From the NCBI GenBank assembly GCA_000002435.2, contig CM018790.1: a DNA stretch of 64,000 bases; one strand, 5' to 3'. The translations under genes and the position numbers were made by a program. Shown one piece after another: positions 5,188-51,104 of the stretch (positions are counted from its first letter, which is position 1; each line of letters opens with the position of its first letter). The notes below the pieces were generated by a model. It worked only from the letters and a program-made list of their open reading frames with translations, made no database searches and was not told the origin of the DNA. The DNA comes from Giardia intestinalis. Lineage: Eukaryota.

Positions 5188-5212
5188 CAAGATCCAGAAT
5201 CTGAAAGTCGGA
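5188..5212 (+). repeat. 20-bp motif GATCCAGAATC(T/C)GAAA, copy 1.
   Basis: The sequence aagatccagaatctgaaagtcggattcc recurs at 22885-22906 in direct orientation and at 21775-21800 in reverse orientation (gatttcggattctggatctc). Confidence 0.6.
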
Positions 5213-5294
5213 TTCCATCCAGCTCTGGTGAGAAAAGAAGACTTTATTTTCATCTCCCTAGGAGCTGTTGCTATTCCTCCCAGCGCCTTCTAAG

Positions 5295-5445
5295 ACTTCC
5301 TCTTCCTCCGACCAGTTATGGGCAGCCAGGACTCAGTTCGCCTCTGCCAGCCAAGCACCCCAAGTCCTATTTCTTGTCGAGGGATTCACATGGGTCACGT
5401 GTGGGTCCGTCTGGACAGGCGGGGCGAGTGATTAGTGCCATCACT
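5295..5445 (-). repeat. Short dispersed repeat element of about 150 bp, copy A, in reverse orientation. The outer palindrome boundary falls inside it.
   Basis: The reverse complement of 5340-5445 reads ggcactaatcactcgccccgcctgtccagacggacccacacgtgacccatgtgaatccctcgacaag...ggctggcagaggcg, which is shared with 20925-21014 and 22997-23100. The outer 45 bp (5295-5340) is a diverged match to 23100-23140. Confidence 0.7.
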
Positions 5446-11803: not shown

Positions 11804-11817
11804 CTTAGGTAGTAAAC
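11803..11817 (+). promoter_or_regulatory. VSP-type extended polyadenylation signal ACTTAGGTAGTAAAC overlapping the stop codon.
   Basis: The sequence acttaggtagtaaac begins at the last base of the TAA stop. It matches the vsp extended poly(A) signal consensus as I recall it (ACTYAGRTAGTRAAY), and it contains the general Giardia AGTRAAY poly(A) motif. Confidence 0.6.
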
Positions 11818-14536: not shown

Positions 14537-14551
14537 GTTTACTACCTAAGT
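14537..14551 (-). promoter_or_regulatory. VSP-type extended polyadenylation signal of VSP copy 2, the mirror image of 11803-11817.
   Basis: It is the reverse complement of the same 15-mer, located at the 3' end of the minus-strand VSP. Confidence 0.6.
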
Positions 14552-19400: not shown

Positions 19401-20924
19401 TAAATAGCATCTTCCTTTGCTGAGGCATGCCACCCAGGATCAAACACTATAAGGCAAGCGCGACCAGAAGCAATTTTCCTTACAAGCCCGTCTACCACTA
19501 GCAGTGAGCATCCAAACGTGTGCACAGGTCCTTGACAAGTGCACTGCGATTCAGGTCGGTCAGTATACTAGACTCGTGACACTTGGTGCACGGATTTCTG
19601 TTTTTAGCTATAGGTATGGAGCCCATGCCTTACCTTGAAAGACGGTGGAACGCTCTGCAGGACCCTTCTGGATATACAGCTATCGCTATAGCTGATGGGG
19701 GAGTAGGTGCGAAGACCTTATGCTTAAACAAAAGCACTCTAGTGCAACCAAGGGCTGTCTCTCGTCAATAGCAGACAGCTCAGACAGGTGGTGTCCATTC
19801 CATCATCAGACCTTATGCGGCGTGTGTGCATTATTAGAGAAGCTTCTGTAATCTCTGCTCAGTCTGCTGGGCAGGCACAGCCCAAGTGCAACGAAGACGG
19901 TGGTGGAGGCAGCCACCGGCGCAGGGCAGTGGGGCGTGTTGCTCGGTGCAGCGCTCTGTAGTTGGAGACTTCGGCCCTCTGAGACGGTCATAGTACAATG
20001 TCCACACATGCAATTGCCTTTTCATGCTGCTTACCCCTATAAGCAGTTGCGATGCATCATACATCAGAAGCGGCGCAGAAGGTCCTCAGACTACCGGACC
20101 AGTAGACCGAACTGACAAGGGCAGCTGGCCATGCACGCAGAATCTCTGTCCTGGGGGCGGCGGGCGCGACGGCTGCCTCAAGTTTTTTAGCCGGGGTGGG
20201 GCTGTCACCTGCTATCTGAGTGATCTTCCCATGCAAGCTACCGCCGCTCTGGGGAAGCAGGTCTCCCTCATCCCTGCATTGGCCAAGATCAAAACCCAAA
20301 GTTCGAACTCAAGTGCCAAGCGACTCCGACGGGAGAAGAACTTTTGTTCTGCCCTCTTCCCAAGAACGAGACAGGACAACCACGATCAGGGGACGATCAT
20401 GATGCGCTCCACAAGGCAGTCCCGAGCCCCCTGGAGACCCAGACACTGGCCTTCCTCGAGACAGAGCAGACTGCGTTCCACCGATTGCACATGGGTGGTG
20501 TTCGCATGGCACAGGGAGACACAAGCTGATGGGTACAGCGGTCTTGCTCGACATAACGAGAGCCCCAACAGCAGACGGCCTCTCCCAGGCAAGTGTGCCC
20601 CGTCCCGAGGAGCTGCGTCGAGGCCTTCCTCCGGCTGGGACGCGCTGCACTCCTGGACTCGGTCCCTCGGGGCCCTGCGCATGCCCCCATACTGCGTGGT
20701 ACAGAACCTGCTCACCAGGAGCTGAAGGAGATACTCCACTCACTGCCCATGCCGATGACAGTGACGCGACAGGGTAGTCACAGAGGCGACAGACCTAGCG
20801 AAGCGCTATGCTCGACGGTCAACATTGGGTGTAAGAGCACTGAGGGGCAGGAGGCCTCCTTCCTGGCCGGTCTCAAGGAGCTCCCAGAGCAACGGAGAGC
20901 TTGAAGCCAGTGATGGCACTAATC

Positions 20925-21063
20925 ACTCGCCCCGCCTGTCCAGACGGACCCACACGTGACCCATGTGAATCCCTCGACAAGAAATAGGACTTGGGGTGCT
21001 TGGCTGGCAGAGGCGGACTGATCCTAACCGCACCGAAGAGTGGAGGCCTGGACCACCTGCCGG
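20925..21063 (+). repeat. Short dispersed repeat element, copy B, at the right outer boundary of the palindrome.
   Basis: ggcactaatcactcgcc...ggcagaggcggactgatcctaaccgcaccgaagagtggaggcctggaccacctgccggg matches 22997-23150 along its whole length with scattered mismatches. The match continues about 50 bp beyond the point where palindrome identity ends at 21014. Confidence 0.75.
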
Positions 21064-26035: not shown

Positions 26036-28576
26036 TTAAAGCTTCTTGCCATCTTTTTCTCCAAATAAACCAAGATTATATATGCATGTGTACTCTCCGC
26101 CGTTATTTGTGAATTGAACACGTACCTGTATGAGGTCGTGATTCTCCTGCAGTTGGAAGGCTTGCTGCTCTGGGCCATCGACGTCGAAAGTGAAGCTCCC
26201 CAGCTGAATCTCCTTTCCAGTGGTTGTGCGCCCGATGAACGTTAGATCACGTGGGACAGTAGTCCGGCCGGTAGAGAGCTTCGGCGCAGCTGGATGTGAG
26301 ATAGTGCCGTAGTACAACGTAACTGGGTCCTTAAAACGCAATACAACATGCCCGTTTTTCTTCGTCGGCCAACATGCTCCTGGTGACATGTTCTCGTTGA
26401 ACATGAGCCGTACACGCTCGTTCCCGGAGATGAGAGTTTTGAGGCTCTCTGCGATGTTCGTAATGTCATCAGATTTGCCTGCAATTCTTGTCCCAAAAGA
26501 CTGTTTCGTAAAATCCGTGTACTGTAACCGCAGATCGTCAACTACGCCTTGTGAGACAGTACTTGTGCTTTCGGAAGAGTAGCTCGTTTGCTTCAATAGA
26601 GCCTTCTTTATTATTCCTGCTAGTCCCATCTTCAGATGATCCACGCGCTCGTTAGCCTCCTGAATCATCTTGTTTTCTGAGGCATTTATCCTCTCCTGAA
26701 TAGCAAGAGTAACGTTCTGTGCCTGCTGTGTAATGTGTTGGGAAAGCTTATACCGTGCCTCTTCAAGGTCAGCTAATGTCAACAGTGAGGACTGAGAATC
26801 ACCATGGCTGCCAGTGCTACCAAAGCCAGAGCCCACCCGGTCTGAAAGCTCTCCAAGTACAACGATAATTCTATCTATGGCGTGCTGCATAGAGCTCAGG
26901 CTTTCAGATGCAAACATTACTGGGGCCGTACCATTGACAGATACCTCTGCATTGACAGCGGACTTTGCAGCAAGGTCAATAAGCACAGTGGATAAGCTCT
27001 CTGTCTGTGTACGGATGCTAGCTAGAGAGTCGCTAATTACCTGGTTTGTTATTGCGGCAGCATCCTTCAGCTGTGTCTGGATGTCAAGGAGGATCGATTG
27101 CTGCAAGGCCTGTAACTCTTTAGTGATGCTCTCGTTGCGATATGACGTCTCTAACCTACGTGACAGGCCCTCTATCATCGTAAATAGAGCAGTGAAGTCG
27201 GCAGATCCTGCGGTTACCACTGCATCTGTCGCATCAGATATCTTCCCAACAGCTGCTTTGATTTTCTCCGAGGCTTTCTTTGCTGGCGTTGAGGTCGCAT
27301 TGAAACTGTTGTTCCTGAGGAGATCCTTCATCAGATCGATGGTAGCAGACTGCGCATTCAGCATCTCCTTCTCAAACTTAGCAATAGCATCAGAGAGTGC
27401 AGAAGTGCGCTCCTTGGTCGCTGAAGTCACTTCGTCCCTAACTATCTTGGCTAGATCTTTTAGTTGGTTGGTCGTAATACTCTGATCAGTGGCCCGAGCC
27501 GTATGCTTATCAATTATCTCTGCAATCTTGAACTCCAACTTTTGATGCTGATCCGAAAGTTTGGACGCCACCTGAGTTGCAATGTTATGAATTTCTTTAT
27601 TATCTAGTGTAAATGCGCGAGCATTGCCCCACTCTTTGAGCAGGACCTTGTTGTTTAACTCAAGGAGAGATTGTATTTCTTTCAGTGACGGGCCTGTGCA
27701 GGACACGCCTGCAACACCGTCACCTGTATGTATAGGAACCAGTGGAGCACCAGCGCCAACGATGCCTAGCCCAGCACATCCCGTCCAGAGGCGCATCAGC
27801 AGGTAGCTGAAGATGAAGAGCACCATGAGAGCAAGTAATCCACATGCGCTAGCGTAAACATACTCAGCGCAACCCCATGCTTTCTTGTAGGCGTAGAGCA
27901 TACCGGGTTCGCCAGCTGTAACCACTCTCGTACTCGTTGATAGCCTCGAAGGTGGACGCGGTCTTCTCTTGACACGCTGCTTGACCATGACATACTCATC
28001 TGTGTACTCATCTTCTTGGGACGGTTGGATAGCTGGGGACGGCTTCTTGATAGGAGTGGCCGACTGTCTGAGTGGGGTTGGAGTGGCTGGCTTAGGCACA
28101 TCCTTGGGAGATTTCCGTGCAGGTGGAGGGCTTGGCGTGGGGCTAGATTCTGGAGGAGTTGACGTGCTGGATGTTTCGGAAAGGGAAGCCTGCTGGGGTT
28201 GACTAGAAGAAGAATCCTTATCCTCTGATGTTATTTCGTATTTGGGAGGCTCCTGGACACGGGATCTCTGAATCGGTGCAACTTGTAGAGCTGTCAAAGA
28301 CTTCTGCAATTTAAGCGCATCACTCTGATCCATGAGGGTGTCAATCTTCTTGGGAGGGCGTGCATCGACCTCAGCGGCCATAAGATACTCTTGAAGCCGG
28401 AGGGTCCCCTCGTCTTGATTTCTAAGATTCTGGGTTATCCGCTCAGACTTACCGGATGTTAGCTCCGCCCTAAACCCGTCGCTTGTCTTCCTAAGGACTT
28501 CCTTTGTGTAGGCCTCATCCTCGCGCGTGGGATTCATACGCACAAGGGCTCCCGAAGAGCGAGTGCGGGGCGGCAT
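26036..28576 (-). CDS. SUN-domain nuclear-envelope protein (Sad1/UNC-84 family), 846 aa.
   Basis: The true ATG is probably at 28574-28576 (MPPRTRSSG...), preceded by aaaaataaaaataaaaat. The product has a basic, S/P-rich N-terminal region, one transmembrane helix (AWGCAEYVYASACGLLALMVLFIFSYLLMRLW), a long coiled-coil region, and a C-terminal SUN domain. The SUN domain reads PGACWPTKKNGHVVLRFKDPVTLYYGTISHPAAPKLSTGRTTVPRDLTFIGR...LGSFTFDVDGPEQQAFQL, which compares with the SUN1/2 sequence PGNCWAF.G..G.VV.L...I.PT.VTLEH......P.....SAPKDF.I.G...LG.FTYD.DG...Q.F. Confidence 0.75.
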   Translation of the reverse strand: MPPRTRSSGALVRMNPTREDEAYTKEVLRKTSDGFRAELTSGKSERITQNLRNQDEGTLRLQEYLMAAEVDARPPKKIDTLMDQSDALKLQKSLTALQVAPIQRSRVQEPPKYEITSEDKDSSSSQPQQASLSETSSTSTPPESSPTPSPPPARKSPKDVPKPATPTPLRQSATPIKKPSPAIQPSQEDEYTDEYVMVKQRVKRRPRPPSRLSTSTRVVTAGEPGMLYAYKKAWGCAEYVYASACGLLALMVLFIFSYLLMRLWTGCAGLGIVGAGAPLVPIHTGDGVAGVSCTGPSLKEIQSLLELNNKVLLKEWGNARAFTLDNKEIHNIATQVASKLSDQHQKLEFKIAEIIDKHTARATDQSITTNQLKDLAKIVRDEVTSATKERTSALSDAIAKFEKEMLNAQSATIDLMKDLLRNNSFNATSTPAKKASEKIKAAVGKISDATDAVVTAGSADFTALFTMIEGLSRRLETSYRNESITKELQALQQSILLDIQTQLKDAAAITNQVISDSLASIRTQTESLSTVLIDLAAKSAVNAEVSVNGTAPVMFASESLSSMQHAIDRIIVVLGELSDRVGSGFGSTGSHGDSQSSLLTLADLEEARYKLSQHITQQAQNVTLAIQERINASENKMIQEANERVDHLKMGLAGIIKKALLKQTSYSSESTSTVSQGVVDDLRLQYTDFTKQSFGTRIAGKSDDITNIAESLKTLISGNERVRLMFNENMSPGACWPTKKNGHVVLRFKDPVTLYYGTISHPAAPKLSTGRTTVPRDLTFIGRTTTGKEIQLGSFTFDVDGPEQQAFQLQENHDLIQVRVQFTNNGGEYTCIYNLGLFGEKDGKKL

Positions 28577-28627
28577 TTTTATTTTTATTTTTAGCTTTGG
28601 CTTTGGCTTTAAACAGAAAGCATACAC

Positions 28628-31026: not shown

Positions 31027-34000
31027 TCAAGAAAGGGACCTAATCTTCTCTCGTTGGGCCGCAGTCAGGCGTGATTCATTAAGTGACGAGAGCGTAGTCT
31101 TAGGAACACGCGCCTTGGCCACTCCAATGACTAGTATATCAACTAACGCGTCCATAGCATATGCCTTGATAGACAGCTCGGAGGCTATCTGCACTAGCGT
31201 TTTACAGACAGCAATCCAGTTCTCCTTTTCCTTTAGTAGAGTATCCAGAATCCCCTTCTCTGCAGCAGTACACATGTTCTTGATAGCTGCTATTGACAAT
31301 TCAATGCACTGAATGTTCCCCTGGGTTTGCACATACTCTATCAGAGTAGCCAAGAACCCAAAGATCATAGGGCATCCCGTCCTTCCTACACCAGCAATCG
31401 TGACTTCGTTGCTCAACAATGTCTTGAGGAGGATGATGTAGGAATGTGCGAGAGTTAACACAATGGTGCACTTACTAACCATAATAGTCTTAAAGAGAGC
31501 AGAGTTCTTCGCCAGATATTGACATATGTTCTCAGAATCCTGCTCATCTGAGCACGACTCAGCAAATACAGTAACAATTTCCACAGGACGAATTATCTGG
31601 CCTGTGATTTTCTCGCTGTCCAACGAAATATCTATGGAAGTTCCTTGCTCCTGCCCTGCTTTCATCAGTTCTGTGAAAAAGCTCTTTATGGCCATGTCTA
31701 CCTTATTAATGTACACCCACAGGTGCTCATACACAAGGTCCTTGTCAGCCAGCGCGATGTACGGAGTTAGGGGGAGGAGTATAAAGAAGAGCCCCGGGTA
31801 GGGGCCACTTTTGTACAGGTCAATCAAAAGGTGCAGCATGGCAGCGCTCTCTAGCAGAACGTTGGAGAACTCTAGTGGAAAGCTTCCAAAGAATATTGTG
31901 AATACCCTTCCAAACAGCTGCAGCAGGTCGGGTTCATTGTTGTATGAAAAGGCTATCTCTTTAAAGCGGTTCATCAGGGGCTTCAGTGCTTGAATGTGAT
32001 AATTGCTTGAGGCCTCATTGAAAGGTTGTTGTGCTGAGGCGTCTTGTCCATCGTCAGCAGCCCCACTTTTGAGCTTAGCAGTATCGACACCGTCACCGTT
32101 AGATTCATCTGAGCTGCTGTCCTGCGGAAGCTTCAGATAGACTGTGTGGCCATCTGGTGGCTGAAGGGTGACAAGGTCGACTTTATTTCTATGAACGTTT
32201 AGAGGAGAAAAGGGATTGGAGAAAAGGATGCTGCTCTGTGTGCGCTTTGCAAATACTCGGAGCATGGCGACAAGCTGCTTCGGATCCGTTATATTGAGCT
32301 TTGATAGCAAAAGAATGTCTGCTCCTTCTAGTAGCTTCGCCAAGCCAAAGTCTTGGTAGTGTATAAGGACTGTCAGCAGTTGGCTGAGAAGAGATCTTTC
32401 GATTGAGATATTATTTATTTGGTACAGCTTCTTGAACAGGACAGTCACAGTATCACACACGTGCTGGAACGTCGTGCGTTGTAACGGCGCAACAAAGAGG
32501 CAGCGTGCGGAGGCCTGTGTTATCGTTGTATCCAGCTTTGTTTTCCCGAGTCTGTCATCTCCCGATGTGATTGCAATTCCCCCTGTTGCAGTGCCTTTTA
32601 TGTCTGCAAGAAGAAAGTCTATCTCCTCTATGGCTCCTTCCAGTACTGTCACCCAATAATAGGTTCGAATGCACGTGGAGGTGTCGCCGGAATTAAAGTC
32701 CAGCTCTCCCACTTTCAGCCCATTTAGTATCCTCCACAGCACAAAGTCAGGGAGTTTCTCTGCCTGTCTTAGTGCTGCCGTTTTGGAAACATAAGCATCC
32801 CGAAGAGCCTTCATGGCAAGGGTAATGTTCCGCTTGGAGTAGTTGCGATATAGTATGTCAAAATGCTTTAAGTGCATAGCTCGTGGGGAAAGCATGAAGT
32901 TCGTGGTTGGATTAAAGTCGGGGCCGATTTCATACGACATGTTTAGATATGCTACTACACTGTTAAGGTATCTCCACAAATCTTCGCTAATGTCGTTAAA
33001 TGAATCTATTAGCGACGTTGTCAAGCACAGACTATAGCTAAGTATACCATCTATCAGCACATTAACGGCATTAGCTTTATACACATCAGGAGGTAGTGTC
33101 ACATGTGTTGCCTCTCCAGACAGAGTGCAAGTCTTTTTCAATGCATCAACGTTCACGTCAGTGTCACATCCTGAGACTAGGATAAGATATTTTTGAACTA
33201 GCGCACACAAGCTAGTTACCATGACAATAAAGTTGTCTTTGGGCTCCTTCAAGTAAGGCTTCAACTTCTGAGACACTAAATCGTTGAATGAGTTCAGGTC
33301 TGGGCTTGCTACATTGCACGTAGAACAAAATATGCCACCTAACACGAATAGCAATTGGTGTAGAAGAACCATCATCCCCACGTGGATGAAATATCTGGAA
33401 TCGCCTTCATAGGTGCAAAGATACTTACACCGTGACGCATCTTTAGACGCGCAGACGTACGCGGAAGGAGGAGATGAGGAATAGAGCTCCTTGAAGAGAC
33501 TGTCAAAAGAGTCCAGAAGCTCTATGATACAGTTTCTGAAGTTGGTGCAGAATTCTGTTAGAGATCCAGCAGGAATGTCATCACATTTTAGGAATTCTGA
33601 TGTTGTTACTTTATTATGTAATCTTTCAGATGAGGACATTATCTTTCGAAGGGGGGCAGACGCTGGAAAGGTTTGTAGTAGGTCTGTTACAATAGAGCAG
33701 AACATTTTGAATTCAGACCAATTGACAGCAAGATTTACCTGTTCTGCTGCCCGCGCCTCCTCGTCTCTCCTGGCCTGTTCTGCTGCCCGCGCCTCCTCGT
33801 CTCTCCTGGCCTGTTCTGCTGCCCGTGCCTCCTCGTCTCTCCTGGCCTGTTCTGCTGCCCGTGCCTCCTCGTCTCTCCTGGCCTGTTCTGCTGCCCGTGC
33901 CTCCTCGTCTCTCCTGGCCTGTTCTGCTGCCCGTGCCTCCTCGTCTCTCCTGGCCTGTTCTGCTGCCCGCGCCTCCTCGTCTCTCCTGGCCTGTTCTGCT

Positions 34001-35442
34001 GCCCGTGCCTCCTCGTCTCTCCTGGCCTGTTCTGCTGCCCGTGCCTCCTCGTCTCTCCTGGCCTGTTCTGCTGCCCGTGCCTCCTCGTCTCTCCTGGCCT
34101 GTTCTGCTGCCCGTGCCTCCTCGTCTCTCCTGGCCTGTTCTGCTGCCCGCGCCTCCTCGTCTCTCCTGGCCTGTTCTGCTGCCCGCGCCTCCTCGTCTCT
34201 CCTGGCCTGTTCTGCTGCCCGTGCCTTCTTATCAGTATCTGCTTTAGCAGCAACACGCAGTGACCTCAAAGATTTAGCAGACAGCGCCCTGTCTCGATTG
34301 AATAATATTGGCTCATACATTTTTGCCTTTTGTGAAACCGTTATGCGCTTTGTTCTGATGAGTTTCTTAGTCATATCCCTTGCTCCAACCACGTATGCCA
34401 AGTCGTTACAGAAGTGGAAGAGCTCCGAGAATACTATTATGGTAGCTTCGGGATTATGAAATATGTCGTCATCGACCAGCAAAAGATCGTGAAACGGACA
34501 CTTAAAGGATGCAGTGAACACTAAAAAGTCGAGCAAACCATAGTCGTGCTTTTTCGAAAATGTCACTCTAAAAAAGCTATCGATGTTCCCCTTGGTCGCC
34601 AGGAAATAATCCTTTAGAGTAGGGTAAGGCTCCAAATTGATTGGGACGTTACCTTCATTGTTCATTAGTTTATACATACCGAATATGCAGTTGCCGAGGT
34701 CCCTGAGCTCATTGCCATCGAAGTCAAAGCCAGTATAATGCTGTGGTCCTGCTCTAGATAGGTTATTGAGTTTGGTATAAAGATAGTTCATCCAGCTGAT
34801 TAGTATGAGCGTTGCATGGTTGCGAATGGAAGAAAAATGCAATCTATGAGGATTTTGAGAATAAGATGCTGCGGACTTAGCTCTTCCTGCTGCTCTAGAA
34901 CACAGGTAGGAGCTACATAGATCCCCAGGTGCAAGGCTTACCGAAGTGAAGTCATCAAAAGTGTGTGTTTTTGCAAAAGCACTAAAACCAGCGTCCTCAA
35001 TGCAAGCAGAGCAAAATGGAACTGGAGTAAGAGTCTCCTGCTCGAGTCCTCTGACCATTGCGGTAGCCGTCAGGGTTGCTATAGTAATAAGTGCATCATA
35101 CAACTCTTGAGATCGATTATTGTGCAACAAAAGCCCGGCTATATCCGGGGAAATCCCTATGTCCCTCACAACTCCCGACGCTATGAAGAGAACGGACATC
35201 TGGTCTATCCCACTTGAAAGCGCGCTCTTGAGAGACCGAACAGATTTAAGGGAGAGTAATTTTAGCCGTGTAGCGCAAGCGAGGACCAGATAGCCGAGAC
35301 TCGTCCCTGCGGATAGCCGATGAACAAAGTCGGCACCGTCATCGCTAAATGGTTCGACAGGCAGCCTTTCAGCGGCAAGTACTCGATTGGCGTATCGCGC
35401 CAGAAAGCCTAGTGAGGGCCTCTGGAACCGTGGACGGTCCAT
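31027..35442 (-). CDS. Large hypothetical protein, 1471 aa, possibly alpha-solenoid, with an internal perfect 12-aa tandem repeat (RRDEEARAAEQA)n.
   Basis: It is one clean ATG-initiated ORF (MDRPRFQRPSLGFLARYANR...). It is helical/leucine-rich throughout. Between 33741 and 34228 about 14 copies of a 36-bp unit encode EARAAEQARRDE. Confidence 0.6.
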   Translation of the reverse strand: MDRPRFQRPSLGFLARYANRVLAAERLPVEPFSDDGADFVHRLSAGTSLGYLVLACATRLKLLSLKSVRSLKSALSSGIDQMSVLFIASGVVRDIGISPDIAGLLLHNNRSQELYDALITIATLTATAMVRGLEQETLTPVPFCSACIEDAGFSAFAKTHTFDDFTSVSLAPGDLCSSYLCSRAAGRAKSAASYSQNPHRLHFSSIRNHATLILISWMNYLYTKLNNLSRAGPQHYTGFDFDGNELRDLGNCIFGMYKLMNNEGNVPINLEPYPTLKDYFLATKGNIDSFFRVTFSKKHDYGLLDFLVFTASFKCPFHDLLLVDDDIFHNPEATIIVFSELFHFCNDLAYVVGARDMTKKLIRTKRITVSQKAKMYEPILFNRDRALSAKSLRSLRVAAKADTDKKARAAEQARRDEEARAAEQARRDEEARAAEQARRDEEARAAEQARRDEEARAAEQARRDEEARAAEQARRDEEARAAEQARRDEEARAAEQARRDEEARAAEQARRDEEARAAEQARRDEEARAAEQARRDEEARAAEQARRDEEARAAEQARRDEEARAAEQVNLAVNWSEFKMFCSIVTDLLQTFPASAPLRKIMSSSERLHNKVTTSEFLKCDDIPAGSLTEFCTNFRNCIIELLDSFDSLFKELYSSSPPSAYVCASKDASRCKYLCTYEGDSRYFIHVGMMVLLHQLLFVLGGIFCSTCNVASPDLNSFNDLVSQKLKPYLKEPKDNFIVMVTSLCALVQKYLILVSGCDTDVNVDALKKTCTLSGEATHVTLPPDVYKANAVNVLIDGILSYSLCLTTSLIDSFNDISEDLWRYLNSVVAYLNMSYEIGPDFNPTTNFMLSPRAMHLKHFDILYRNYSKRNITLAMKALRDAYVSKTAALRQAEKLPDFVLWRILNGLKVGELDFNSGDTSTCIRTYYWVTVLEGAIEEIDFLLADIKGTATGGIAITSGDDRLGKTKLDTTITQASARCLFVAPLQRTTFQHVCDTVTVLFKKLYQINNISIERSLLSQLLTVLIHYQDFGLAKLLEGADILLLSKLNITDPKQLVAMLRVFAKRTQSSILFSNPFSPLNVHRNKVDLVTLQPPDGHTVYLKLPQDSSSDESNGDGVDTAKLKSGAADDGQDASAQQPFNEASSNYHIQALKPLMNRFKEIAFSYNNEPDLLQLFGRVFTIFFGSFPLEFSNVLLESAAMLHLLIDLYKSGPYPGLFFILLPLTPYIALADKDLVYEHLWVYINKVDMAIKSFFTELMKAGQEQGTSIDISLDSEKITGQIIRPVEIVTVFAESCSDEQDSENICQYLAKNSALFKTIMVSKCTIVLTLAHSYIILLKTLLSNEVTIAGVGRTGCPMIFGFLATLIEYVQTQGNIQCIELSIAAIKNMCTAAEKGILDTLLKEKENWIAVCKTLVQIASELSIKAYAMDALVDILVIGVAKARVPKTTLSSLNESRLTAAQREKIRSLS
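33741..34228. repeat. 36-bp coding minisatellite of about 13.5 copies. Copies differ only at one synonymous C/T site.
   Basis: On the plus strand the unit gttctgctgcccg(c/t)gcctcctcgtctctcctggcct repeats head-to-tail. It produces long artefactual ORFs in three frames (33491..34459+, 33825..34247+, 33735..34256-). Confidence 0.9.
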
Positions 35443-39520: not shown

Positions 39521-42500
39521 TCATGATACTATGCGTTTTATCCTTTCCTTATCAAAGTCTATGTACTCTTCTAGCTCCTCTAGCGTCTTTAAGAACGTTT
39601 CTCGAGCCAGTAGGTAAAGACCCTCATAGTCCCTATATTTTCCCATGAGCTGATTCGCAAGTACGATCTTTTCTGCTTGCAGGTTCATCAACCTGATAAT
39701 GAGCTTCCCCAATCTTTCGCGACAGAGCTCTATCTCAGTGTGTGTTAGGGAATTTGGTTCCTTACAATATACTGGCAGTTCATTGCGCAGAATGTCTATT
39801 TTTTCCGCTATGTGTGGTGGAAGCATCTCATTATTAGCCTGAACATAGTCAGAATTAGACATGAACCCAGTTATATTGAACCGACCGTGGTATCCAGACT
39901 CACGGCATGTACCATAGGGACCCATGAAGTATACATCTGAATCCGATTGAGGAATGTATGCTTTGTCTACATGTCGAAGCCTGTTTTGCTTTGATTCCTG
40001 GCTTGATCCGTGATAGGTGCTATCACCCGTAAGATAGCTCCCTTGGCGTAAAGCGTGAGTCGCCTTGCTATCGGGATACTTATATAAGTTGCGATAATGC
40101 TTCATCGAAACGTCTGTCTTGACCACCAACTTGGGGTATATTAAGTCAGACAAGAATACCTTTATCAGTCTGGGACATAGTGCGAAATAGCTTGAAGACG
40201 TAGTACCAGTGATGGTCTCTAGCTCTTCAGGTTCTTCCGGGTTCGTGGCTTCAGAAAAATCATCCACAGGGGTACTGAGTGGGGCCATCGCAAGGGATTG
40301 ATGGTATGGCATATTAAGCTTTAAGCTTGCTCTGATTGTTGCTAGTCGCTCGGTTGGAGTAAAGAGCTCTTTAATATCATAGCCTTCATCAGAGTTCAGC
40401 TCCGGGCTTCCTCCCGATTTACGTTTGTCGATAAGAGAATCTTCCAGACTGGTGGAGGGAGCCGTTTTTGTCACACTGTGTGCGCCTGAATAGAGGGAGC
40501 TAGACACGTCATCCATCATGTGTGCGTCTGTCAATTCTTTAGAGTGTACCTTTTGTTCTGGTCGATCTGTGGCTATCCCTACTGTTGGTGACGAAATGCT
40601 TTCTCTGTTTTGGTCATCAAATGGCATGATCTTTTCTGGGAATATCCTAAGCGAATCATCTGCTTCTACGCTACTCTCCAAACATCTTACGGATCGATTG
40701 CTTTGATCTCTAACTATTACATCCGTATTCATGGTTTGGTTTTCTAGAAGGCCGTCATTTGACTTCGTGGCAATGAACGTGTCGTGGTTGTCATTGAGTT
40801 GCTTCTCAGTAAGTGCCACAGTAGTCGATGAGACAAGGTCATCGAAGTTAACCACCTGGATTGTAGTCTCCTGCTCTTCGGAAAATTCATTTCGCTTATT
40901 CAGGAACATTCTAACAATGTCCATAGTTCCGCTGTTCACGCTGGGGGTCACGATACCTGTTAAGTTTTGAAAGACTTTATTAAGCTCATCTGGAAGCCTT
41001 TCAGTATCATAGATTGCTTTTTCAACTATCCTGATGGCCTCTTGGATTGGATTGCTGTATTCCTCATAGACGTATATGACTCTTTGGCGCGAATTTGTGT
41101 GAGGAAATGGGTGTGCAGTGTAGTAGTAAACATTTAGACATCCGGCTAATTTGATTGATGAATCACCAGAGTACACCTGCTGTTGTATCCGTCGCCGAAA
41201 GATTTGTCGCGAGGTGTAGGAATGAATCGTGTTGCAAGACGATCCAGTATCAACTGAGGTTTCGTCGGATGCTAAAACAAACGGATAGTAATTATAAATG
41301 ATATTGGAGTAATACGTTATTGGATAGCCATCTTTCTCATCGGTAGCTCTATGTGCAGATACATGGTCGGCGTGCGTCCGTAGTAGCACTTCCCCAGGGA
41401 TGTGTAAGTTCGGTTCTGTGTGTACAGGCACTAAGTGAGGATTAGAGTATGGCCCCCCAAGGAACGATAAGCTGTCTTCGGGGTGCCCAGCCTTACTGTC
41501 TGCTCCCATGTCATAAGAAAGTAGTTGAGCCAAGATCTTCTGTTTTATCTGCTCCTCCTTTTCTGTGAGAAGTGCAGCCGATTGAACTATCTTGTACGGC
41601 TCCACCTTCTGAACAATTATCTTGGGCGTGCCGTCAGGTTTCCGCAAATCAGGTGGGTCGTAGAACCGCTTCAACCTCTCAGTGAACTCTCGAATTGTCT
41701 CTGAGTGAGGACAGCAATAGATATATTCTGTAGTCGATTCCTTACCGTTGTTTTCCGTCGTGATAGACACCCAATAGTAGTGCACATTCTCATGTAGTTT
41801 GTAAGCGTCCTCGTGGCTCTTCTTTTCGGCCAGGAGTGCGTCACTATAGCACTGGATCATAGAAAGCGGGTCGAAATAGCTAGGTAGCTTATCTTGTGTG
41901 GGTGTAGCCAGAGAGCTAGAATACAGCTCCGTCAGTGTCATAAGAAGCTTGTAGATATGCTTGGTATATAAATAGAACTTGGCAGTCTGGAACTCGGTGG
42001 CAGCGCTCTGCAGTGCAAGTAGTAATTTGAAAAACTGACCACCGTCCAGAGATGAGTATATGTTTTCGCTTTTCCCCATTAGATGCTGTGCCTTTGCAAT
42101 GTACGCGAACCATACATCCAAATCGTTCTGCACAGTAATGTCGGGAATAATCTTGCGCAGCTCCGGGATAACTATCTTACTGAGAGAGTAGACTGAAGGG
42201 AGACTGGAGTAATCAATAACCTTGTCGTCAAATTGTGACCTGACAATTAAGTACTCGCTAATAAGCCCCGCAATCAATATAGACACCATTCCGGCTTCAA
42301 CGTGCCGTCTGTTTTCCCTTAAAAAGTTAAAGAGCGACTGCAGACTAAATAGGCGCAGGTCCACTTGACCAACGTAGCAATCTGCCTGTGACAGCTTGAG
42401 CTCTGCATACAGATCCAAGTCGGTAACGGTGCTCCCCATCGATTGGATCTTGGAGCGCTCCTTTATCATGTACTCGCTTTCTATTACTATGAGCAATCTA

Positions 42501-45500
42501 TCATAGAAGAGACATACAGTTGAATAGAAGTGCTTGCAGATAAAGCTAACCTTGCCTGAGACGGGAGTCATCTCATGCAACCCAGAACCGTCGTCACAGC
42601 CTCCGTTTATCCAGGCCTCGTCGTTAGAGCATATCTCGTTGACACCAGCACGTACGTAATCAAAGAATGAAATTATTGCCTTCTTCTTCTTGGCTGTAAG
42701 ATCCATAGTGACCAAGGAGTAATTGATCATCGAAAATAGAATGGACGTGTTGGCATGATAGTCAAATTCTATTTTGAGCAATATCGCGATTATCGTTGCT
42801 GCTAGACTGTACAGACTGAACTGTTCTAGGTCTATTTTATCAAGCAATGCCTTAATAACCATAGAGATTCCATGATCAAAATCAGATTTTTTATTTTCTA
42901 AACCATTGAATAAGATTGAGGCAATAGACGGAAAATAGTTGACAAGGGCGTTCAGCACAATCTCATTATACACAGCAAACTTGTGATCCTTAACTAGAAA
43001 GTATGCAAATGTATGAATTAATTCGGCGTGAACGTCACAGAAGCTTGAAGATGACGTTGACCCAGAATCCAGTACTCGAGTCTCGTCTGAATTGACAATA
43101 AGGTGTTGTGTGTATGAGAGTAATTGATACATAGCTGATTCATAAATAAGTGTCGAAAGCAGTGATGCAACCACGTCACAGGACGAATCAGGACCCTTTA
43201 TTAGCTTCAGATAAAGCAGGTCTGCTGATGTGGAATGGGCTCGTTGCGGGTTGCTTACATTATCCACGGTAGTTTGAGAAGCTAAAGAAATAGGCTTTTC
43301 AACGTGTGCTTCGGTTGAGTCAAGGACCGACAACTTATTACTTTTAATTTGGGCTGCTAGGTAGGTGATAACCTCCTCCACACTGGAGGGCTTCGTCCGA
43401 TGACTCAAGTGATGGCGAGGCGGGGATAGAGCTGGGGGGTGTGGCTCTACAGCAGGTATCTGCTTAATGCAGCTGTCAGTAAAAGTGAAGGTGCCTGTTA
43501 ATCTATGGACGCTCGAGCCTTTGTCGCGATGTCGAGCAGAAACGCTGTGAGATATTTCCTTCTCATCTCCGGTCATGTCCTCTTCTGCCGTGGGGTCGTC
43601 GATAGAGCCCACAACCGAATGTGTCAACTTATGCCAGGTGTGCTGAGACTCCTGAATATCTACAGAGTCCTCAAGCGCTCGATAGATGCTGGCATCGTCA
43701 GTATCATCAGAAGTAGTAAGAGTCGCCTGGCTGATCTGTGTGGAGATCTTAAATCCTTGGCGTGCAGATTGTTTAGAGGTAGGTTTCTTCATAGCGCGAT
43801 GCCCGCCTCTGGAGGTCGTAGACTCGCGCTGCTCCTTTATGATCCTCCTGGGGATGTATGGGATGTTGGGGCATGTCTGTTGTCCAAACGATGCTCCCGA
43901 AGGTATTGTTCCATGAGCATTATGATAGGCAGTTGCAGTGTGAAATAACTGGCTTGAAGTAACCCAAGTAGTAGAGGCATTTCTATCCGTTTTGGAGTAT
44001 GGGTCATAGGTCGACGTATGCTGAAGAGATAGCACCGGATTTTGGGTTGTATTGCTAGATAGTTTACCATCATCGTTATATTTGAGCACCCTCCCCATAA
44101 ACATATCCGTAATCGTTTCAGAAAACAAGAGTAGGTCATCACTCACCGAAGAACCAGATTTAAAAGAGTCAAAAAATGGACCGAGCCTCTGATGAGCGTG
44201 AACTTGCTGATTAGATGAATCACTATAGAATGGAGAAACAAACAGAAAAGGCGTGGGCTTAACAGAGCCATTATTTGGAGGAAGGAAGATGTTGTCGACA
44301 AGCTTGGAGTCACCAGACAGCAGAAAATTCAAATAACGCATGCTCTGAACACGGTAGGATGAAGATGTCAGAATAGTGGCCCTCTTTCTAAGAGAATCCT
44401 CGTCAAAGAGAAACGGTACATGGCGATAGATCTTAAGCATGCTCTGTGCTTGCTCCACAGTTAAGTTGCGCAAAAACTCAATGCAGTAATTTGTTAATCT
44501 TTGAAGAAAGGTAATAAGAAAGAGGAACATTTCTGCCATAAGAAGTTCCAACGAAAAGTCAGTGCATTGCGCCTGAACGTCCGATGTGTGTGAATACGGA
44601 GATCCCCGGACTGTCTTAGGTGTAGACGAATCTTCAAGATCTGATTGCTTCACAGTTGTCCTTGGAGTGGACAAGGATGCAACCGCCACTCCTGCATTGT
44701 CTGTAACATTACACTTCCTACCCTGGTCGCCAGGCACCGTGTGCACATCAGTCTCAGGTGTGCTTGCCCTATTACTGGTGTCAGTCTGCTTGTTGACTGA
44801 ATTGAAGAACTTGTCATAATTATCAAGAATTAATAGGAGCAGTGGGACACACGACACGTAGAGAAATGACGGGGTTTGTCTAGCTATGTCCCCCGAGCAA
44901 ACCTCCCAAAGAAATATAAAGATATTTGTGCAGATTGATCGGAAAGCCGTGTGGTCTTCTACGGAATGGGACAGCTCAGAATTATAGTTAAACAGCAGAC
45001 AATGCAATGCCTTGAGATACAAATGCGGAAGAATGCACCCCACTGGAATCAAGTTGAATGGTGGTAACGTGTAGTCGACGGAACCATCAGAGGTGTCGGA
45101 AGCGCCCCCTTGGAAAGTAAACGACTCCTTAGCGTGAATGTCTGTGAATGAGTATGAATAGAGAAGAGCCCGTTCCCTCATCAATTGGTGCAAAAAGTCA
45201 AAGAAGATCTGCCACCTGGTAAACCAATGACCACCCTTGAAGGTGTCATTTTTGTCAATCAGAGACTCGAGAAACGAGAACAACTTAGTCTTCTTGGGGC
45301 TAGTAACAACAAGAAGAATAAAAAGCTTTGCAGTCGAGGTAATAATAACAAAGGACTTATTGTACGAGGTTAGTGAATAACAGGAATCGATAAGATTATA
45401 AAGAATTGCGTTGATCAAATGGCCTATTGAGTTGATGAAAGCAATGAGGTCGGCTTCAAACTCAGCTCGCTCTACACTGTCATGAGAGACGGTCGCACTC

Positions 45501-48500
45501 GATGAGTGCGTGCCCTCCAAACTGTCGGAGTTTCCGGAGACATCCAGCACTGCGTTGTCAAAAAGAAAGCAGGACATACTAGCATTGTACAAATGCTTAT
45601 ACCTGGTCAAGATAATCATAAAGCTTTTGGCGATAAGGAGAAAGTTGTGGGGTATGATTGCAAAAAGACGGTCAACTAAAGAGGATTTCTGAATGATGTA
45701 CTTTATTACGCTGTTGTGTAAGTAAGAAACATAATTCTGAAGCGCTTGGAAGGTTGTTATAGAGCATATGTGGTGGGCAACCATGGCGTACACGGCCAGA
45801 TTGGCAAGTACGAAAGAGTCTTGCTTAAATGGCTCGGACAGGGAGGTATCTGATGAACTGTCTTGATGGTAGAACGAGATGTGATTGCCGATACCGCCGA
45901 GAGCCCGGTATATGTCTGATAGTGCCGCGAACTCGCCATCTAACGGATTCTGTATCGCGCTCGTAGAGCCAAACAACGGCGCTAGCATGGCCCCGAGAAG
46001 CGGAGTGTAGATGAAGTTCTGTAGCATCATAAGCCAGGAGTTGCGCCTCCCAAAAGTTTTGTGTGCTTTAAACGCGGCTGCCACTTCTTCGTTAATACAA
46101 TGGCGATATAAATTGTTGACAATCGCCATGCTCTCGTTTGAAATGGTGGTAAAGGGGGCAAGAACGTGCTCCAGGCAATTGAAAATAAGGTCCCTAGAAA
46201 CAACGTGTTCAAATAGCTCTTGGTGCATGAGCAGGGAGGCCAGTGCAACTGCAATATTATAGGTGGGCCCATATTGCTCCAATAGAATGCTCTCTCCATA
46301 AAATGGAATGGACTTACGCTTAGAAGCTGCTAGCTGGGCCTGAAGCTGGGCTTGAGTCGCTGCAAAGCTTGCACCTGCCGGTGCCAGCGGTCCACGTAGT
46401 TCGTCGCTCACAATGCTACTGGTAGCGTTTCCTAAGTATGCATCCCGGGATATCTTAAAACTGACCGCGTAGAGATTGACCTTGTCGCAAAATCTACGCA
46501 GGGTCTTCACGCTTTTATCCAGATCAATGCAGCTGTGGAGAACTATGTTCTTAGCGCATGTATATGCATAGTAAATTGCGTTCAAAAAGTGAGAATGTGT
46601 GTAAAGGGAAGATTCATAGCGTAGTGTGCAAAGCATATATCCTACCTGTTTAGTCTGCTTGCTGATGCCATCTGTTAGACCCTGTAAAGGCCTTTCCTTG
46701 TCAGCTTGAGACGACAAATAGCCTGCAGAAATTTGGCTCTGAAACGGGATAGAAATAGATCTATCATAGTTTTCGACAAACTCGCTATTTGTCATCATAG
46801 GAGGAGACAAGGCATCGACCCCGAGAGTGTTCTGCAGCACCGGTACTCCCAGCTCGTCGACACCCTTGACAAGAGGAAGGTATGCATAACCAAGTAGTGA
46901 AAGCTGAGTGCGTGCCTCAACGATGTGCTGAATGCTCGCTGGGTCTATTGAGTCTTGCATACCCGATCCCAGTATTTCAGTATATTGCGAGGATCTCACG
47001 GGAATGGAGTCAGCAGGATGCGACACGACGGAACTAGTGGTGGACATCTTACCTGAAGCAAGAGCATAGGTGGGGAATGTATGCTCCTTGTTATCAGTGG
47101 TACTACAGAATGCAGGTGTTGCATATAACTGTGTCAACTTGGTGAGATTCATGATCTCAGTGGCTGTTTTCTCTTGAGGTACAAAGACAGTATCGTCAAC
47201 ACCTACAATTGTCGAGAGATCACATTTATCTGCATGAGCCCTTTCTTTTGCAGAAAGCCCAGGAACCCCATAGAGCGTAAACAGGAAATGTGTCTTCGGA
47301 GTGATGTACAGCGGTAGCTCAAACTTAACCTCATCATGGAGTCGTACCACACGCGTATTGACAGCTGCAGAGGTCAAATACGAACTTCGAAAGGCTATTC
47401 GACCCTTAGTCATGTCATCCGGTGTCATGGAGCCGTGAAGCCTTGGATAAATGGCCCACATTATATCTTTATCGTCTAATGCATCATCAGAGCGCATCTC
47501 CACCTTCAGGAAGAAAGCATTGTAACGTGCATTCGGTAGAGTTACGATAAAAGACTGCGGATATAGGTAGACCCGATTCCTGAAGGGAGCGGCAGGAGTA
47601 CCGACCTCTCGGCGGAAGAAGCAGTCTAGCTGCTTAACGTAGATGTGGTTGGGATGAAGCTTATTTCCTCTAATGCGATCGAAGAAATAATGGGACTGAA
47701 GCGAAGAAAACGCCTTTTTATGCTCTAGTGTGGTCTCGGCGTCACGTAGCGTCAGATATATGCGTTGACTAGATATCCCTTGTGCGCTCATGAGGGCAAA
47801 TAATAAAAGATGACTCAGTGTGTCTGTAGTCAAATATCCGTGCTTCAAAAGCAACAATAAATCACTATGTTCTCCTCTCTCGAGAAGATGCAGACTATAG
47901 GACCAAACCATTAGCTCTAGTTCATGTGCAAAATCCGGAAGGTGATTTGGCTGCAGAGTGCGGTAACTTGGGGCGTCCTTTATAGCTCTGAACACCCCTG
48001 AACTTGAATCATAGACACCGAACGTATTGACAGAAGTATTGACATACAATTGAACGTAGTTTAAAGCCCGTTTCTTTGATACGCGATCATTGTATGTGTT
48101 TAAAAGAACAGAGGCCAGAGGCTCTGTTTGTGAAATATTTTTAGGAAGGCGAACAAAGGTGTTAAGCTTATGCGAAACGGGTCGCAAGGGGTGCACAAAG
48201 GAAAGCCCCTTCTCATTTAGAACACTAGAAAAACGAGGATCCTTTTTGAGCTTGCTTACAGAGTAAATGCCGCGCCTTTTCTGCTCATTGAAGTATCCAC
48301 ACATGCGGCCAATAAGCTCCCTGCGTTCAGGATCAGTGTCGGACTCCTGTAGATGCACAAATGAATCGGCGTCAGAGTTGGAATTGCAATCTGCCTCCAA
48401 TAGATCTTGCAGCCTGACCTGTTGCTCCATCCCATCTCTACGCTTGATGCTTGAAGTTCTAGAATAAATAATTTTGGTGAGCAAAAGAAAGTTTTCCAAT

Positions 48501-51059: not shown

Positions 51060-51104
51060 TAGCGGGGTGGCTAAAAAATAAATCAGGTGACGGTGAGAGT
51101 AAAC

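What the first reader, a model, noticed from the sequence alone, without database searches (positions are those of the whole stretch)
33741..34228. Highly homogenised 36-bp coding minisatellite, (RRDEEARAAEQA) repeated about 14 times, inside a 1471-aa protein
About 13.5 tandem copies of a 36-bp unit differ only at a single synonymous position (GCG versus GCA for Ala). The C/T pattern across copies is non-random: c,c,t,t,t,t,c,t,t,t,t,c,c,t. Such perfection implies recent expansion or continual unequal exchange. The repeat should be length-polymorphic between isolates. It encodes a charged helical Glu/Arg/Ala segment, which could form a single alpha-helix or spacer domain. It also explains three long spurious ORFs in other frames.
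Basis: seen in the sequence. Interest (0 to 1): 0.5.

Follow-up and report, generated by a model that had tools for sequence, protein, structure and literature searches.

The report
Length-variable helical-spacer repeat in Giardia
A near-perfect 36-base repeat inside an uncharacterised Giardia intestinalis gene encodes a long charged alpha-helix linking two conserved domains; its copy number runs from about 1 to 13 between isolates, which makes it a real but fairly ordinary variable coding repeat.

Summary
Window 33739-34224 (minus strand) holds 13.5 in-frame copies of a 36-bp unit. They differ only at one synonymous GCA/GCG site. The array lies in a 1471-aa ORF identical to Giardia intestinalis WB hypothetical protein GL50803_004883.

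The array is length-polymorphic in public assemblies:
- WB: 13 full units in the PacBio assembly, 12 in the older Sanger-based gene model.
- DHA2: 7.
- P15: 5.
- GS: 4, the same in two independent assemblies.
- Other assemblage B samples: 5 and 1.
- An assemblage A-like lineage: 1.

Units within an array are 96-99% identical. A and B units differ by about 20%, roughly as much as the flanking gene. This is concerted evolution by slippage or unequal exchange. G. muris has a non-repetitive Pro/Glu-rich linker of similar length (174 versus 178 aa) at the same site.

The peptide (ARAAEQARRDEE)n has no hydrophobic residues and dense i/i+3 and i/i+4 Glu-Arg pairing. AlphaFold2 models it as one continuous helix. 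It links a Giardia-only N-domain to an ARM/HEAT-like C-domain. The most likely role is a single-alpha-helix-type spacer. Whether it is monomeric is untested. Verdict: a new member of known kinds, of modest interest.

The parts
33739..34206 (-). 13 full 36-bp units (GCC AGG AGA GAC GAG GAG GCR CGG GCA GCA GAA CAG = ARRDEEARAAEQ), head to tail and in frame.
   Evidence: 13 matches with at most 1 mismatch, 0 expected by chance..
34207..34224 (-). Leading half-unit (GCA CGG GCA GCA GAA CAG = ARAAEQ). The array therefore begins and ends on the same half-unit, giving 13.5 copies in total.
31027..35442 (-). Gene for the 1471-aa protein, identical to Giardia intestinalis WB GL50803_004883 (hypothetical protein, KAE8301990.1 / XP_001705547.2).
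   Evidence: One search shows an exact match to P0012.
34258..35442 (-). N-terminal conserved domain (aa 1-395), 47% identical to G. muris. No homologue outside Giardia, no Pfam or PDB match, fold not resolved.
33724..34257 (-). Linker (aa 396-573, 178 aa) that holds the repeat. AlphaFold2 models residues 410-585 as one continuous helix.
31030..33723 (-). C-terminal all-alpha domain (aa 574-1471), ARM/HEAT-like alpha-solenoid by fold comparison.
33491..34459 (+). Spurious 322-aa ORF on the opposite strand, kept open by the stop-free repeat.
33735..34256 (-). Spurious 173-aa ORF in another frame of the coding strand.
33825..34247 (+). Spurious 140-aa ORF on the opposite strand.

Best explanation
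This is an in-frame coding minisatellite (a variable-number tandem repeat) in a Giardia-specific gene.

DNA level. The 36-bp unit gains and loses whole copies by replication slippage and/or unequal sister-chromatid or allelic exchange. That keeps the copies within one array almost identical while arrays in different lineages drift apart (concerted evolution). Because the unit is 12 codons, every change preserves the reading frame.

Protein level. The array encodes (ARAAEQARRDEE)n, an Ala/Arg/Glu helix with no hydrophobic seam that is stabilised by i/i+3 and i/i+4 Glu-Arg salt bridges. It most likely acts as a semi-rigid single-alpha-helix-type spacer between the conserved N-terminal domain and the ARM/HEAT-like C-terminal scaffold. 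At 0.15 nm per residue the repeat would span about 24 nm in WB, about 13 nm in DHA2, 8-10 nm in GS and P15, and about 3 nm in the one-unit alleles.

Shown here: the repeat, its frame, copy-number differences between assemblies, homogenisation within arrays, the predicted helix, and the domain layout. Inferred: the mutational mechanism, the monomeric state of the helix, and the spacer role.
For: - Array anatomy.
- Identity of the gene and organism. Neighbouring genes are Giardia VSP and Giardia Dicer.
- Copy number by lineage: 13 in WB; 12 in the older WB gene model (P0013, 1459 aa); 7 in DHA2; 5 in P15; 4 in GS in two independent assemblies (L003, L004); 5 and 1 in assemblage B metagenome assemblies; 1 in an A-like lineage found on 14 contigs from two kinds of assembler.
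- A Logan contig from a WB-like sample starts inside the last unit, as expected when short k-mers meet a real long array.
- The WB assembly behind this window used 200x PacBio with read N50 of 12.7 kb (PMC7000408), so a 486-bp array is easily spanned.
- Concerted evolution: within-array identity is 0.956-0.989, A versus B units 0.80, and the flank 0.74. Unit consensus pS is 0.58 and pN 0.07 for A versus B, against 0.70 and 0.13 for the N-domain.
- Block patterns in the variants (lag 5 in WB, lag 4 in DHA2) hint at multi-unit events.
- No hairpin propensity, so plain slippage or exchange suffices.
- Helix: AlphaFold2 gives a continuous helix over residues 410-585 at pLDDT 70-77. The segment has 0% ILVMFWY, 57% charged residues and 8 favourable pairs per unit. 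A home-made normalised salt-bridge score of 0.37 lies between the designed (EAAAK)n linker (0.17) and the human Myo10 single alpha-helix (0.48).
- The 12-residue period advances 120 degrees per unit, so no seam can persist along one face.
- Predicted single alpha-helices of diplomonads are reported to be unusually rich in Arg and Ala (PMC5812594).
- Spacer logic: the site is a linker in every orthologue. G. muris has a non-repetitive Pro/Glu-rich 174-aa segment there. Known single alpha-helices bridge two functional domains (abstracts of PMC4183817 and PMC10335832).
Against: - Copy numbers come from assemblies. Short-read and 454 assemblies can collapse arrays, so individual low counts could be underestimates.
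- Charged-residue content (57%) is below the roughly 80% reported for typical predicted single alpha-helices (PMC5812594).
- Perfectly repetitive Arg-only designs (AEEERRR) and Ala-enriched designs were helical but aggregated or oligomerised (PMC5347031). A monomeric state is therefore not assured.
- A 1-to-13-unit range, together with a chemically unrelated linker in G. muris, suggests that neither a precise length nor a helix is essential.
- The fold of the N-domain is unknown (pLDDT below 50) and nothing is known about localisation or partners. 'Spacer between what and what' remains open.
Confidence: 0.6

Rival explanations
1. The repeat is a functionally neutral expansion tolerated in a linker. 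The cell does not use its helix or its length; slippage simply inflates and deflates a permissive region.
For: - Copy number ranges from 1 to 13 among closely related lineages. The A-like, WB and DHA2 flanks are 99.1-99.2% identical.
- G. muris has a completely different, non-repetitive Pro/Glu-rich linker.
- There is no published phenotype or literature for the gene.
Against: - The 12-aa unit is conserved 11/12 between assemblages A and B, although synonymous sites are near saturation in the gene (unit pN 0.07 versus pS 0.58). The peptide sequence is therefore under purifying selection.
- All within-array variants in WB and DHA2 are synonymous. The replacements seen elsewhere keep helix-forming residues and, apart from Ala to Leu in assemblage B, the charged character: Arg to Lys, Ala to Glu, Gln to Arg.
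- Every G. intestinalis lineage keeps at least 1.5 units.
Confidence: 0.2
2. The segment is helical but self-associates, as a dimeric or oligomeric coiled-coil-like rod or through Arg-mediated bundling. It would then be an oligomerisation module whose strength scales with copy number.
For: - Highly helical, perfectly repetitive Arg-rich de novo polypeptides oligomerised or aggregated (PMC5347031).
- Four Ala per 12 residues, plus one Leu per unit in assemblage B, give small apolar patches.
Against: - WB has no Ile, Leu, Val, Met, Phe, Trp or Tyr in 162 residues.
- The 12-residue period is out of phase with heptad (154 degrees per unit) and hendecad (98 degrees per unit) packing.
- A net charge of about -1 per unit (-13 over the array) opposes self-association.
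- Charged helices of this kind are classic false positives for coiled coil, for example INCENP (abstract of PMC4571873).
Confidence: 0.12
3. The charged helix is a binding surface for nucleic acid or microtubules, like the INCENP single alpha-helix or the CAF-1 KER helix, or it is an immunodominant repeat epitope as in other parasites. On this view it is not a passive spacer.
For: Precedents exist: the INCENP single alpha-helix binds microtubules, the CAF-1 KER single alpha-helix binds DNA (abstracts), and VSP repeats in Giardia are immunodominant (PMC2996952).
Against: - The repeat is net acidic (3 Arg versus 4 Asp/Glu per unit), which is unfavourable for DNA or tubulin tails.
- The protein gave no hit to Pfam's VSP model, unlike the neighbouring VSP gene. 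By eye its N-terminus (MDRPRFQRPSLGFLARYANR...) does not look like a signal peptide and the sequence lacks the VSP CXXC richness; no signal-peptide predictor was run. It is therefore probably not surface exposed.
Confidence: 0.05
4. The array, or its length, is an assembly artefact.
For: - Two WB gene models differ by one unit (1471 versus 1459 aa).
- Tandem repeats are a known source of assembly error (PMC6868369, title and abstract; PMC2996952).
Against: - The array appears in independent Sanger, 454, Illumina and PacBio assemblies of different isolates, with lineage-specific unit sequences that collapse or expansion cannot create.
- 200x PacBio with 12.7-kb read N50 spans the 486 bp many times over.
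- The GS count is reproduced in two assemblies.
Confidence: 0.03

Closest known systems
Single alpha-helix (SAH / ER/K / charged single alpha-helix) linkers, for example in myosin-6, myosin-10, INCENP and the CAF-1 KER region
   Same: It is a long uninterrupted helix rich in Glu and Arg, with i/i+3 and i/i+4 opposite-charge pairs and no hydrophobic seam. It sits between two structured domains. Arg- and Ala-rich composition is reported for predicted single alpha-helices of diplomonads (PMC5812594).
   Different: Natural single alpha-helices are usually non-repetitive and about 80% charged or polar. This one is a perfect 12-residue repeat with 33% Ala, Arg only and no Lys (in WB), and 57% charged residues. 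Its monomeric state is untested. Its length varies several-fold within a species complex.
Designed Ala-based helical linkers such as (EAAAK)n, and Ala/Glu/Lys model helix peptides (from general knowledge; alanine-based peptides with E-K or E-R pairs are discussed in PMC5347031 and PMC5812594)
   Same: It has an Ala-rich backbone of high helix propensity pinned by spaced Glu/Arg salt bridges, and behaves as a rigid spacer whose length is set by repeat number.
   Different: It is natural, with a 12-residue rather than a 5-residue period, a higher charge density and a net negative charge.
Tandem repeats in Giardia VSP genes (vspA6 195-bp, vspC5 105-bp), which show allelic and isolate copy-number variation (PMC2996952)
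   Same: Same organism. The arrays are in frame and near identical, and copy number differs between alleles, paralogues and isolates, from about 1 to more than 20.
   Different: VSP repeats are 105-516 bp, lie in Cys-rich surface antigens and are immunodominant. This 36-bp repeat lies in a non-VSP protein that is probably intracellular, and it encodes a simple charged helix.
Coding minisatellites / VNTRs with concerted evolution, such as the loci used for MLVA typing of Cryptosporidium parvum (PMC10665698)
   Same: Unit of 10-100 bp, length a multiple of three, homogenised copies, and copy number polymorphic between isolates.
   Different: No VNTR typing scheme for Giardia appeared among the top-ranked results of the library search. 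The mutation rate of this locus is unknown.
A/E/R/K-rich helical segments in unrelated proteins retrieved by the repeat itself: an OmpA-family protein P0006, proteins P0008 and P0009 that carry Pfam PF09397, and a kinase P0011
   Same: They share near-identical short motifs (EEARAAEQA, AEQARRD) in long low-complexity helical stretches.
   Different: There is no homology outside the low-complexity stretch, so this is convergent composition and not a family.

Membership tests
Coding minisatellite / VNTR | Head-to-tail tandem array of a 10-100 bp unit, far beyond chance | tested here: met
   TRF: period 36, 13.6 copies, 98% matches. 13 unit matches against 0 in shuffles.
Coding minisatellite / VNTR | Unit length a multiple of 3 and translated in frame within a real gene | tested here: met
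   36 bp equals 12 codons inside ORF 31027-35442 (-). The ORF is conserved end to end in G. intestinalis assemblages A, B and E and in G. muris.
Coding minisatellite / VNTR | Copy number polymorphic between individuals or isolates | tested here: met
   13, 12, 7, 5, 5, 4, 1 and 1 full units in different assemblies. This is at assembly level only; no reads or PCR were available.
Coding minisatellite / VNTR | Homogenisation of copies within an array relative to other lineages (concerted evolution) | tested here: met
   Identity 0.956-0.989 within arrays against 0.73-0.81 between A/E and B units. The flank is 0.74.
Single alpha-helix (SAH / ER/K) domain | Dense i/i+3 and i/i+4 pairing of Glu/Asp with Arg/Lys along a long stretch | tested here: met
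   8 favourable pairs per 12 residues. The window score is 0.42 against a maximum of 0.09 elsewhere in the protein. The normalised score of 0.37 compares with 0.48 for the Myo10 single alpha-helix. Both scores are home-made, not Waggawagga or SCAN4CSAH.
Single alpha-helix (SAH / ER/K) domain | No hydrophobic heptad seam | tested here: met
   0% ILVMFWY in 162 residues. The 12-residue period is out of phase with heptad and hendecad packing.
Single alpha-helix (SAH / ER/K) domain | Continuous alpha-helix | tested here: met
   AlphaFold2 helix over residues 410-585, pLDDT 70-77. This is a prediction only.
Single alpha-helix (SAH / ER/K) domain | Very high charged or polar content (about 80%) with mixed Lys and Arg | tested here: not met
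   57% charged, 33% Ala, Arg only in WB. Typical values are taken from PMC5812594. Arg-only repetitive designs aggregated (PMC5347031).
Single alpha-helix (SAH / ER/K) domain | Monomeric, stable and non-cooperatively unfolding in solution | not testable with these tools
   Needs CD, AUC or SEC-MALS on recombinant fragments.
Canonical coiled coil | Heptad (or hendecad) periodicity with hydrophobic a/d positions | tested here: not met
   There are no hydrophobic residues, and the period of 12 gives a phase drift of 154 or 98 degrees per unit.
Giardia VSP tandem-repeat genes | VSP domain (CXXC-rich ectodomain, conserved C-terminal tail) | tested here: not met
   The 1471-aa protein has no Pfam match at E<=0.01, and neither do its three parts at E<=1. 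The neighbouring 628-aa ORF hits Pfam VSP at 1.8e-91.
ARM/HEAT alpha-solenoid (C-terminal domain only) | Stacked helical-hairpin repeats that superpose on known ARM/HEAT proteins | tested here: inconclusive

The most novel reading that the evidence does not exclude
The array could be a fast-mutating, selectable 'length dial' on a molecular ruler. Copy number would change on culture or outbreak timescales (12 versus 13 units in two WB C6 assemblies). Lineages or hosts would select different reaches (about 3 to 24 nm) between the Giardia-specific N-domain and its ARM/HEAT scaffold. That would make it a eukaryotic contingency-type locus that tunes protein geometry rather than expression. It would also give a natural allelic series for testing how the length of a single alpha-helix sets function, and a first high-resolution VNTR marker for Giardia typing.
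Probability: 0.1. Interest if true: 0.55.

Novelty: new member of a known kind. Interest (0 to 1): 0.3.

Why it matters
- Typing. The locus is a candidate VNTR marker for sub-assemblage typing of Giardia. Within assemblage A, alleles of 1, 7 and 12-13 units sit on flanks that are more than 99% identical.
- Biophysics. It provides a natural allelic series, 1.5 to 13.5 copies of one 12-residue module, for testing whether perfectly repetitive Arg/Ala-rich helices behave as single alpha-helices. The published design work leaves that question open.
- Annotation. The T-free unit is stop-free in all six frames. It generates three spurious ORFs, breaks short-read contigs, and has already produced two different lengths for the same WB gene model.

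It does not reveal a new kind of system.

Tried and rejected
- Phage or mobile-element origin: megablast of the gene against the phage collection found nothing. The window is Giardia chromosomal DNA.
- Family assignment for the protein failed throughout.
  - Pfam gave no match on the whole protein (E<=0.01) or on its three parts (E<=1).
  - PDB sequence profiles gave nothing for the N-domain and one insignificant hit for the C-domain.
  - An exhaustive HMMER profile search of the N-domain against 1.84 billion representatives returned only Giardia.
  - The first homology search returned only Giardia orthologues plus low-complexity look-alikes.
- The AlphaFold2 model of the N-domain was too poor (pLDDT below 50) to use for fold search. 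The afdb50 fold library was unavailable.
- Literature: no paper in the searchable library mentions GL50803_4883 or 004883 or the orthologue locus tags. The one Giardia-focused paper among 20 holding both 'Giardia' and '4883' was opened, and there 4883 is a page number; the other 19 were judged by title only.
- Hairpin-driven instability: neither strand of three units folds better than shuffles as DNA (z = 0.3 and 0.8).
- Non-random order of the synonymous variants: not significant.
- More alleles from JGI metagenomes: an exact-pattern scan found none.
- RNA element: the Rfam gathering-threshold scan of the whole window found nothing.
- A repeat in the G. muris orthologue: none in the linker; the only TRF hit in that gene is a 23-bp, 1.9-copy match near its 3' end.

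Full report
**Observation**

Tandem Repeats Finder finds a single strong array in the 64-kb window: 33738-34226, period 36, 13.6 copies, 98% matches, score 943. Searching the unit GCCAGGAGAGACGAGGAGGCACGGGCAGCAGAACAG with up to 3 mismatches gives 13 contiguous hits on the minus strand at 33739-34206. None of 100 dinucleotide-preserving shuffles gave a hit. A leading half-unit at 34207-34224 completes 13.5 copies.

The only variable base is the third position of one Ala codon (GCA or GCG). The array is in frame in ORF 31027-35442 (-), 1471 aa, and encodes ARAAEQ(ARRDEEARAAEQ)x13.

The coding strand of the unit contains no T (G16 A12 C8). No stop codon can therefore occur in any of the six frames. 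That explains the three overlapping ORFs of 322, 173 and 140 aa.

Permutation does not support this: runs p = 0.29, best periodic structure p = 0.09. Two G-A-A-A-A blocks in WB and a lag-4 pattern in DHA2 are still suggestive of multi-unit duplications.

**Where the window comes from**

The window is Giardia intestinalis WB. The ORF is identical to GL50803_004883, a hypothetical protein. Its neighbours include:
- two identical VSP genes in a 7-kb perfect inverted repeat;
- Giardia Dicer;
- DOCK-like, MORN, SUN and SET proteins.

The inverted VSP pair (628 aa, tail to tail, 2747 bp apart) matches the pair d11521/11521 on chromosome 2 listed in the paper describing the PacBio WB assembly (PMC7000408).

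**Copy number in other isolates**

Orthologues were recovered from other Giardia assemblies, and their DNA was read unit by unit.

| Source | Full units |
|---|---|
| WB, PacBio assembly | 13 |
| WB, older gene model XP_001705547.1 (1459 aa) | 12 |
| DHA2 (assemblage AII) | 7 |
| P15 (assemblage E) | 5 |
| GS (assemblage B), two independent assemblies | 4 |
| Assemblage B metagenome scaffold | 5 |
| Assemblage B MEGAHIT contig | 1 |
| A-like lineage, 14 contigs, Logan and ENA assemblers | 1 |

A Logan contig from a WB-like sample begins inside the last unit. This is what a k-mer graph does at a real long array. The 81-kb contigs that run straight through the one-unit allele therefore probably do carry a short allele.

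The WB reference rests on 200x PacBio with read N50 of 12.7 kb. The array is therefore not an assembly expansion.

**Concerted evolution**

Mean identity between units within one array is 0.956-0.989. Between A and B arrays it is 0.80, and between E and B 0.73-0.76. The 5' flank of the gene is 0.74 identical between A and B.

Each lineage has its own fixed unit:
- A: AGG AGA ... CGG GCA GCA GAA.
- E: AAG (Lys) in four of five units, and GCG.
- B: CGG CGA ... CGC TTG GCA GAG, with Ala replaced by Leu.

One B sample carries Ala-to-Glu and Gln-to-Arg variants spread over adjacent units.

The unit consensus diverges between assemblages about like the rest of the gene: pS 0.58 and pN 0.07, against 0.70 and 0.13 for the N-domain. 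With only 12 codons these numbers are rough. The unit thus predates the split of assemblages A, B and E and is under purifying selection as a peptide. The copies are continually homogenised or re-expanded.

Neither strand has hairpin propensity. Plain replication slippage or unequal exchange is the economical mechanism. This step is inferred, not shown.

G. muris has no repeat at this site. It has a 174-aa Pro/Glu-rich, non-repetitive linker, compared with 178 aa in WB. The upstream ankyrin-repeat neighbour is conserved.

**What the repeat encodes**

The 162-residue repetitive stretch is 34% Ala, 25% Arg, 25% Glu, 9% Gln and 8% Asp. It has no Ile, Leu, Val, Met, Phe, Trp or Tyr, and a net charge of -13. 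There are eight opposite-charge i+3/i+4 pairs per unit.

The 12-residue period advances 120 degrees per unit on an ideal helix. It is out of phase with heptad and hendecad packing, so a conventional coiled coil is unlikely.

AlphaFold2, run on a six-sequence alignment, models residues 410-585 as one unbroken helix at pLDDT 70-77.

A home-made normalised salt-bridge score puts the unit at 0.37. That lies between the designed (EAAAK)n linker at 0.17 and the human Myo10 single alpha-helix at 0.48. The G. muris linker scores 0.03.

Published surveys predict 17-47 single-alpha-helix domains in Giardia, depending on parameters. They note that such domains in diplomonads are unusually rich in Arg and Ala (PMC5812594).

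There is a caution. De novo, perfectly repetitive Arg-rich or Ala-enriched designs were helical but oligomerised or aggregated (PMC5347031). Monomeric behaviour must be measured.

**The host protein**

The N-terminal domain (aa 1-395) is 47% identical between G. intestinalis and G. muris. It has no detectable relative outside Giardia among 1.84 billion representative proteins. It has no Pfam or PDB match, and its model is unreliable.

The repeat is thus the linker between a conserved lineage-specific domain and a solenoid scaffold. This is the architectural position in which single alpha-helices act as spacers or springs in myosins, INCENP and CAF-1 (abstracts). At 0.15 nm per residue the repeat would span about 24 nm in WB, 13 nm in DHA2, 8-10 nm in GS and P15, and 3 nm in one-unit alleles.

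**Rival explanations**

- Neutral, tolerated expansion. Support comes from the wide range of lengths and the unrelated G. muris linker. Against it are the conservation of the peptide unit and the retention of at least 1.5 units in every lineage.
- Self-associating helix. Support comes from the aggregation of Arg-only designs. Against it are the lack of hydrophobic residues, the phase drift and the net negative charge.
- Binding surface or antigen. Against it are the acidic net charge and the absence of VSP features.
- Assembly artefact. Excluded by independent technologies and by lineage-specific unit sequences.

**Comparison with known systems and verdict**

The locus meets every testable criterion of a coding VNTR under concerted evolution. 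It meets most sequence criteria of a single-alpha-helix domain.

In-frame tandem repeats with allelic and isolate copy-number variation are already documented in Giardia VSP genes (PMC2996952). This repeat is shorter, sits in a non-VSP protein and encodes a charged helix.

No paper in the searchable library mentions the gene. No Giardia VNTR typing scheme appeared among the top-ranked results.

I rate it a new member of known kinds. It could be useful as a typing marker and as a natural series of helix lengths, and it is a practical warning for annotation and assembly. It is not a new kind of system. Interest 0.3.

Noticed in passing
window 5333-12333 and 14021-21021: A 7001-nt, 100% identical inverted repeat carries two identical 628-aa VSP genes (9917-11803 + and 14551-16437 -; Pfam VSP 1.8e-91). 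They lie tail to tail, 2747 bp apart. This matches the known pair d11521/11521 on chromosome 2 listed in PMC7000408. The 1687-bp centre lies in the window's most G+C-rich stretch (62% over 12001-14000).
   Followed up: yes
window 39521-50503 (-): A 3660-aa intron-less ORF has a DOCK C2 domain and DHR-2 lobes A and C. It looks like a giant DOCK-family GEF-like protein in Giardia.
   Followed up: no
window 59670-61934 (-): Giardia Dicer: Dicer_N 1e-100, PAZ, and two RNase III domains.
   Followed up: no
window 54347-59677 (-), 26036-28627 (-), 51087-53717 (+): A 1776-aa MORN-repeat protein, an 863-aa SUN-domain (Sad1/UNC) protein and an 876-aa SET-domain protein.
   Followed up: no
window 33739-34224: The coding strand of the unit has no T at all and is 78% purine, with GC skew +0.33. 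This is why all six frames are open. Such a strand asymmetry could favour R-loops or triplex DNA; this was not tested.
   Followed up: partly
proteins P0012 and P0013 (WB gene models): The same WB gene is 1471 aa in the current model and 1459 aa in the older model XP_001705547.1, exactly one unit fewer. This reflects either an assembly difference or a real change between laboratory stocks.
   Followed up: partly
L010 1-13 (Logan SRR10662886 contig): The contig starts with GCTCTTCCGATCT, which I recognise as the end of an Illumina adapter, about 100 bp downstream of the array. Adapter read-through was left in a public contig.
   Followed up: no
proteins P0006-P0011: Unrelated proteins contain long A/E/R/K-rich stretches with the same short motifs (EEARAAEQA, AEQARRD). 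Their precomputed Pfam domains include OmpA family (P0006), PF09397 (P0008, P0009), DUF6600 (P0010) and protein kinase (P0011). This is convergent low-complexity helical composition, not homology.
   Followed up: partly
L013 (G. muris CM016925.1) 3001-7197: The G. muris orthologue keeps the upstream ankyrin-repeat neighbour, but downstream it has Cluap1 and a proteasome subunit instead of HscB. Its linker is Pro/Glu-rich, 174 aa and non-repetitive.
   Followed up: partly
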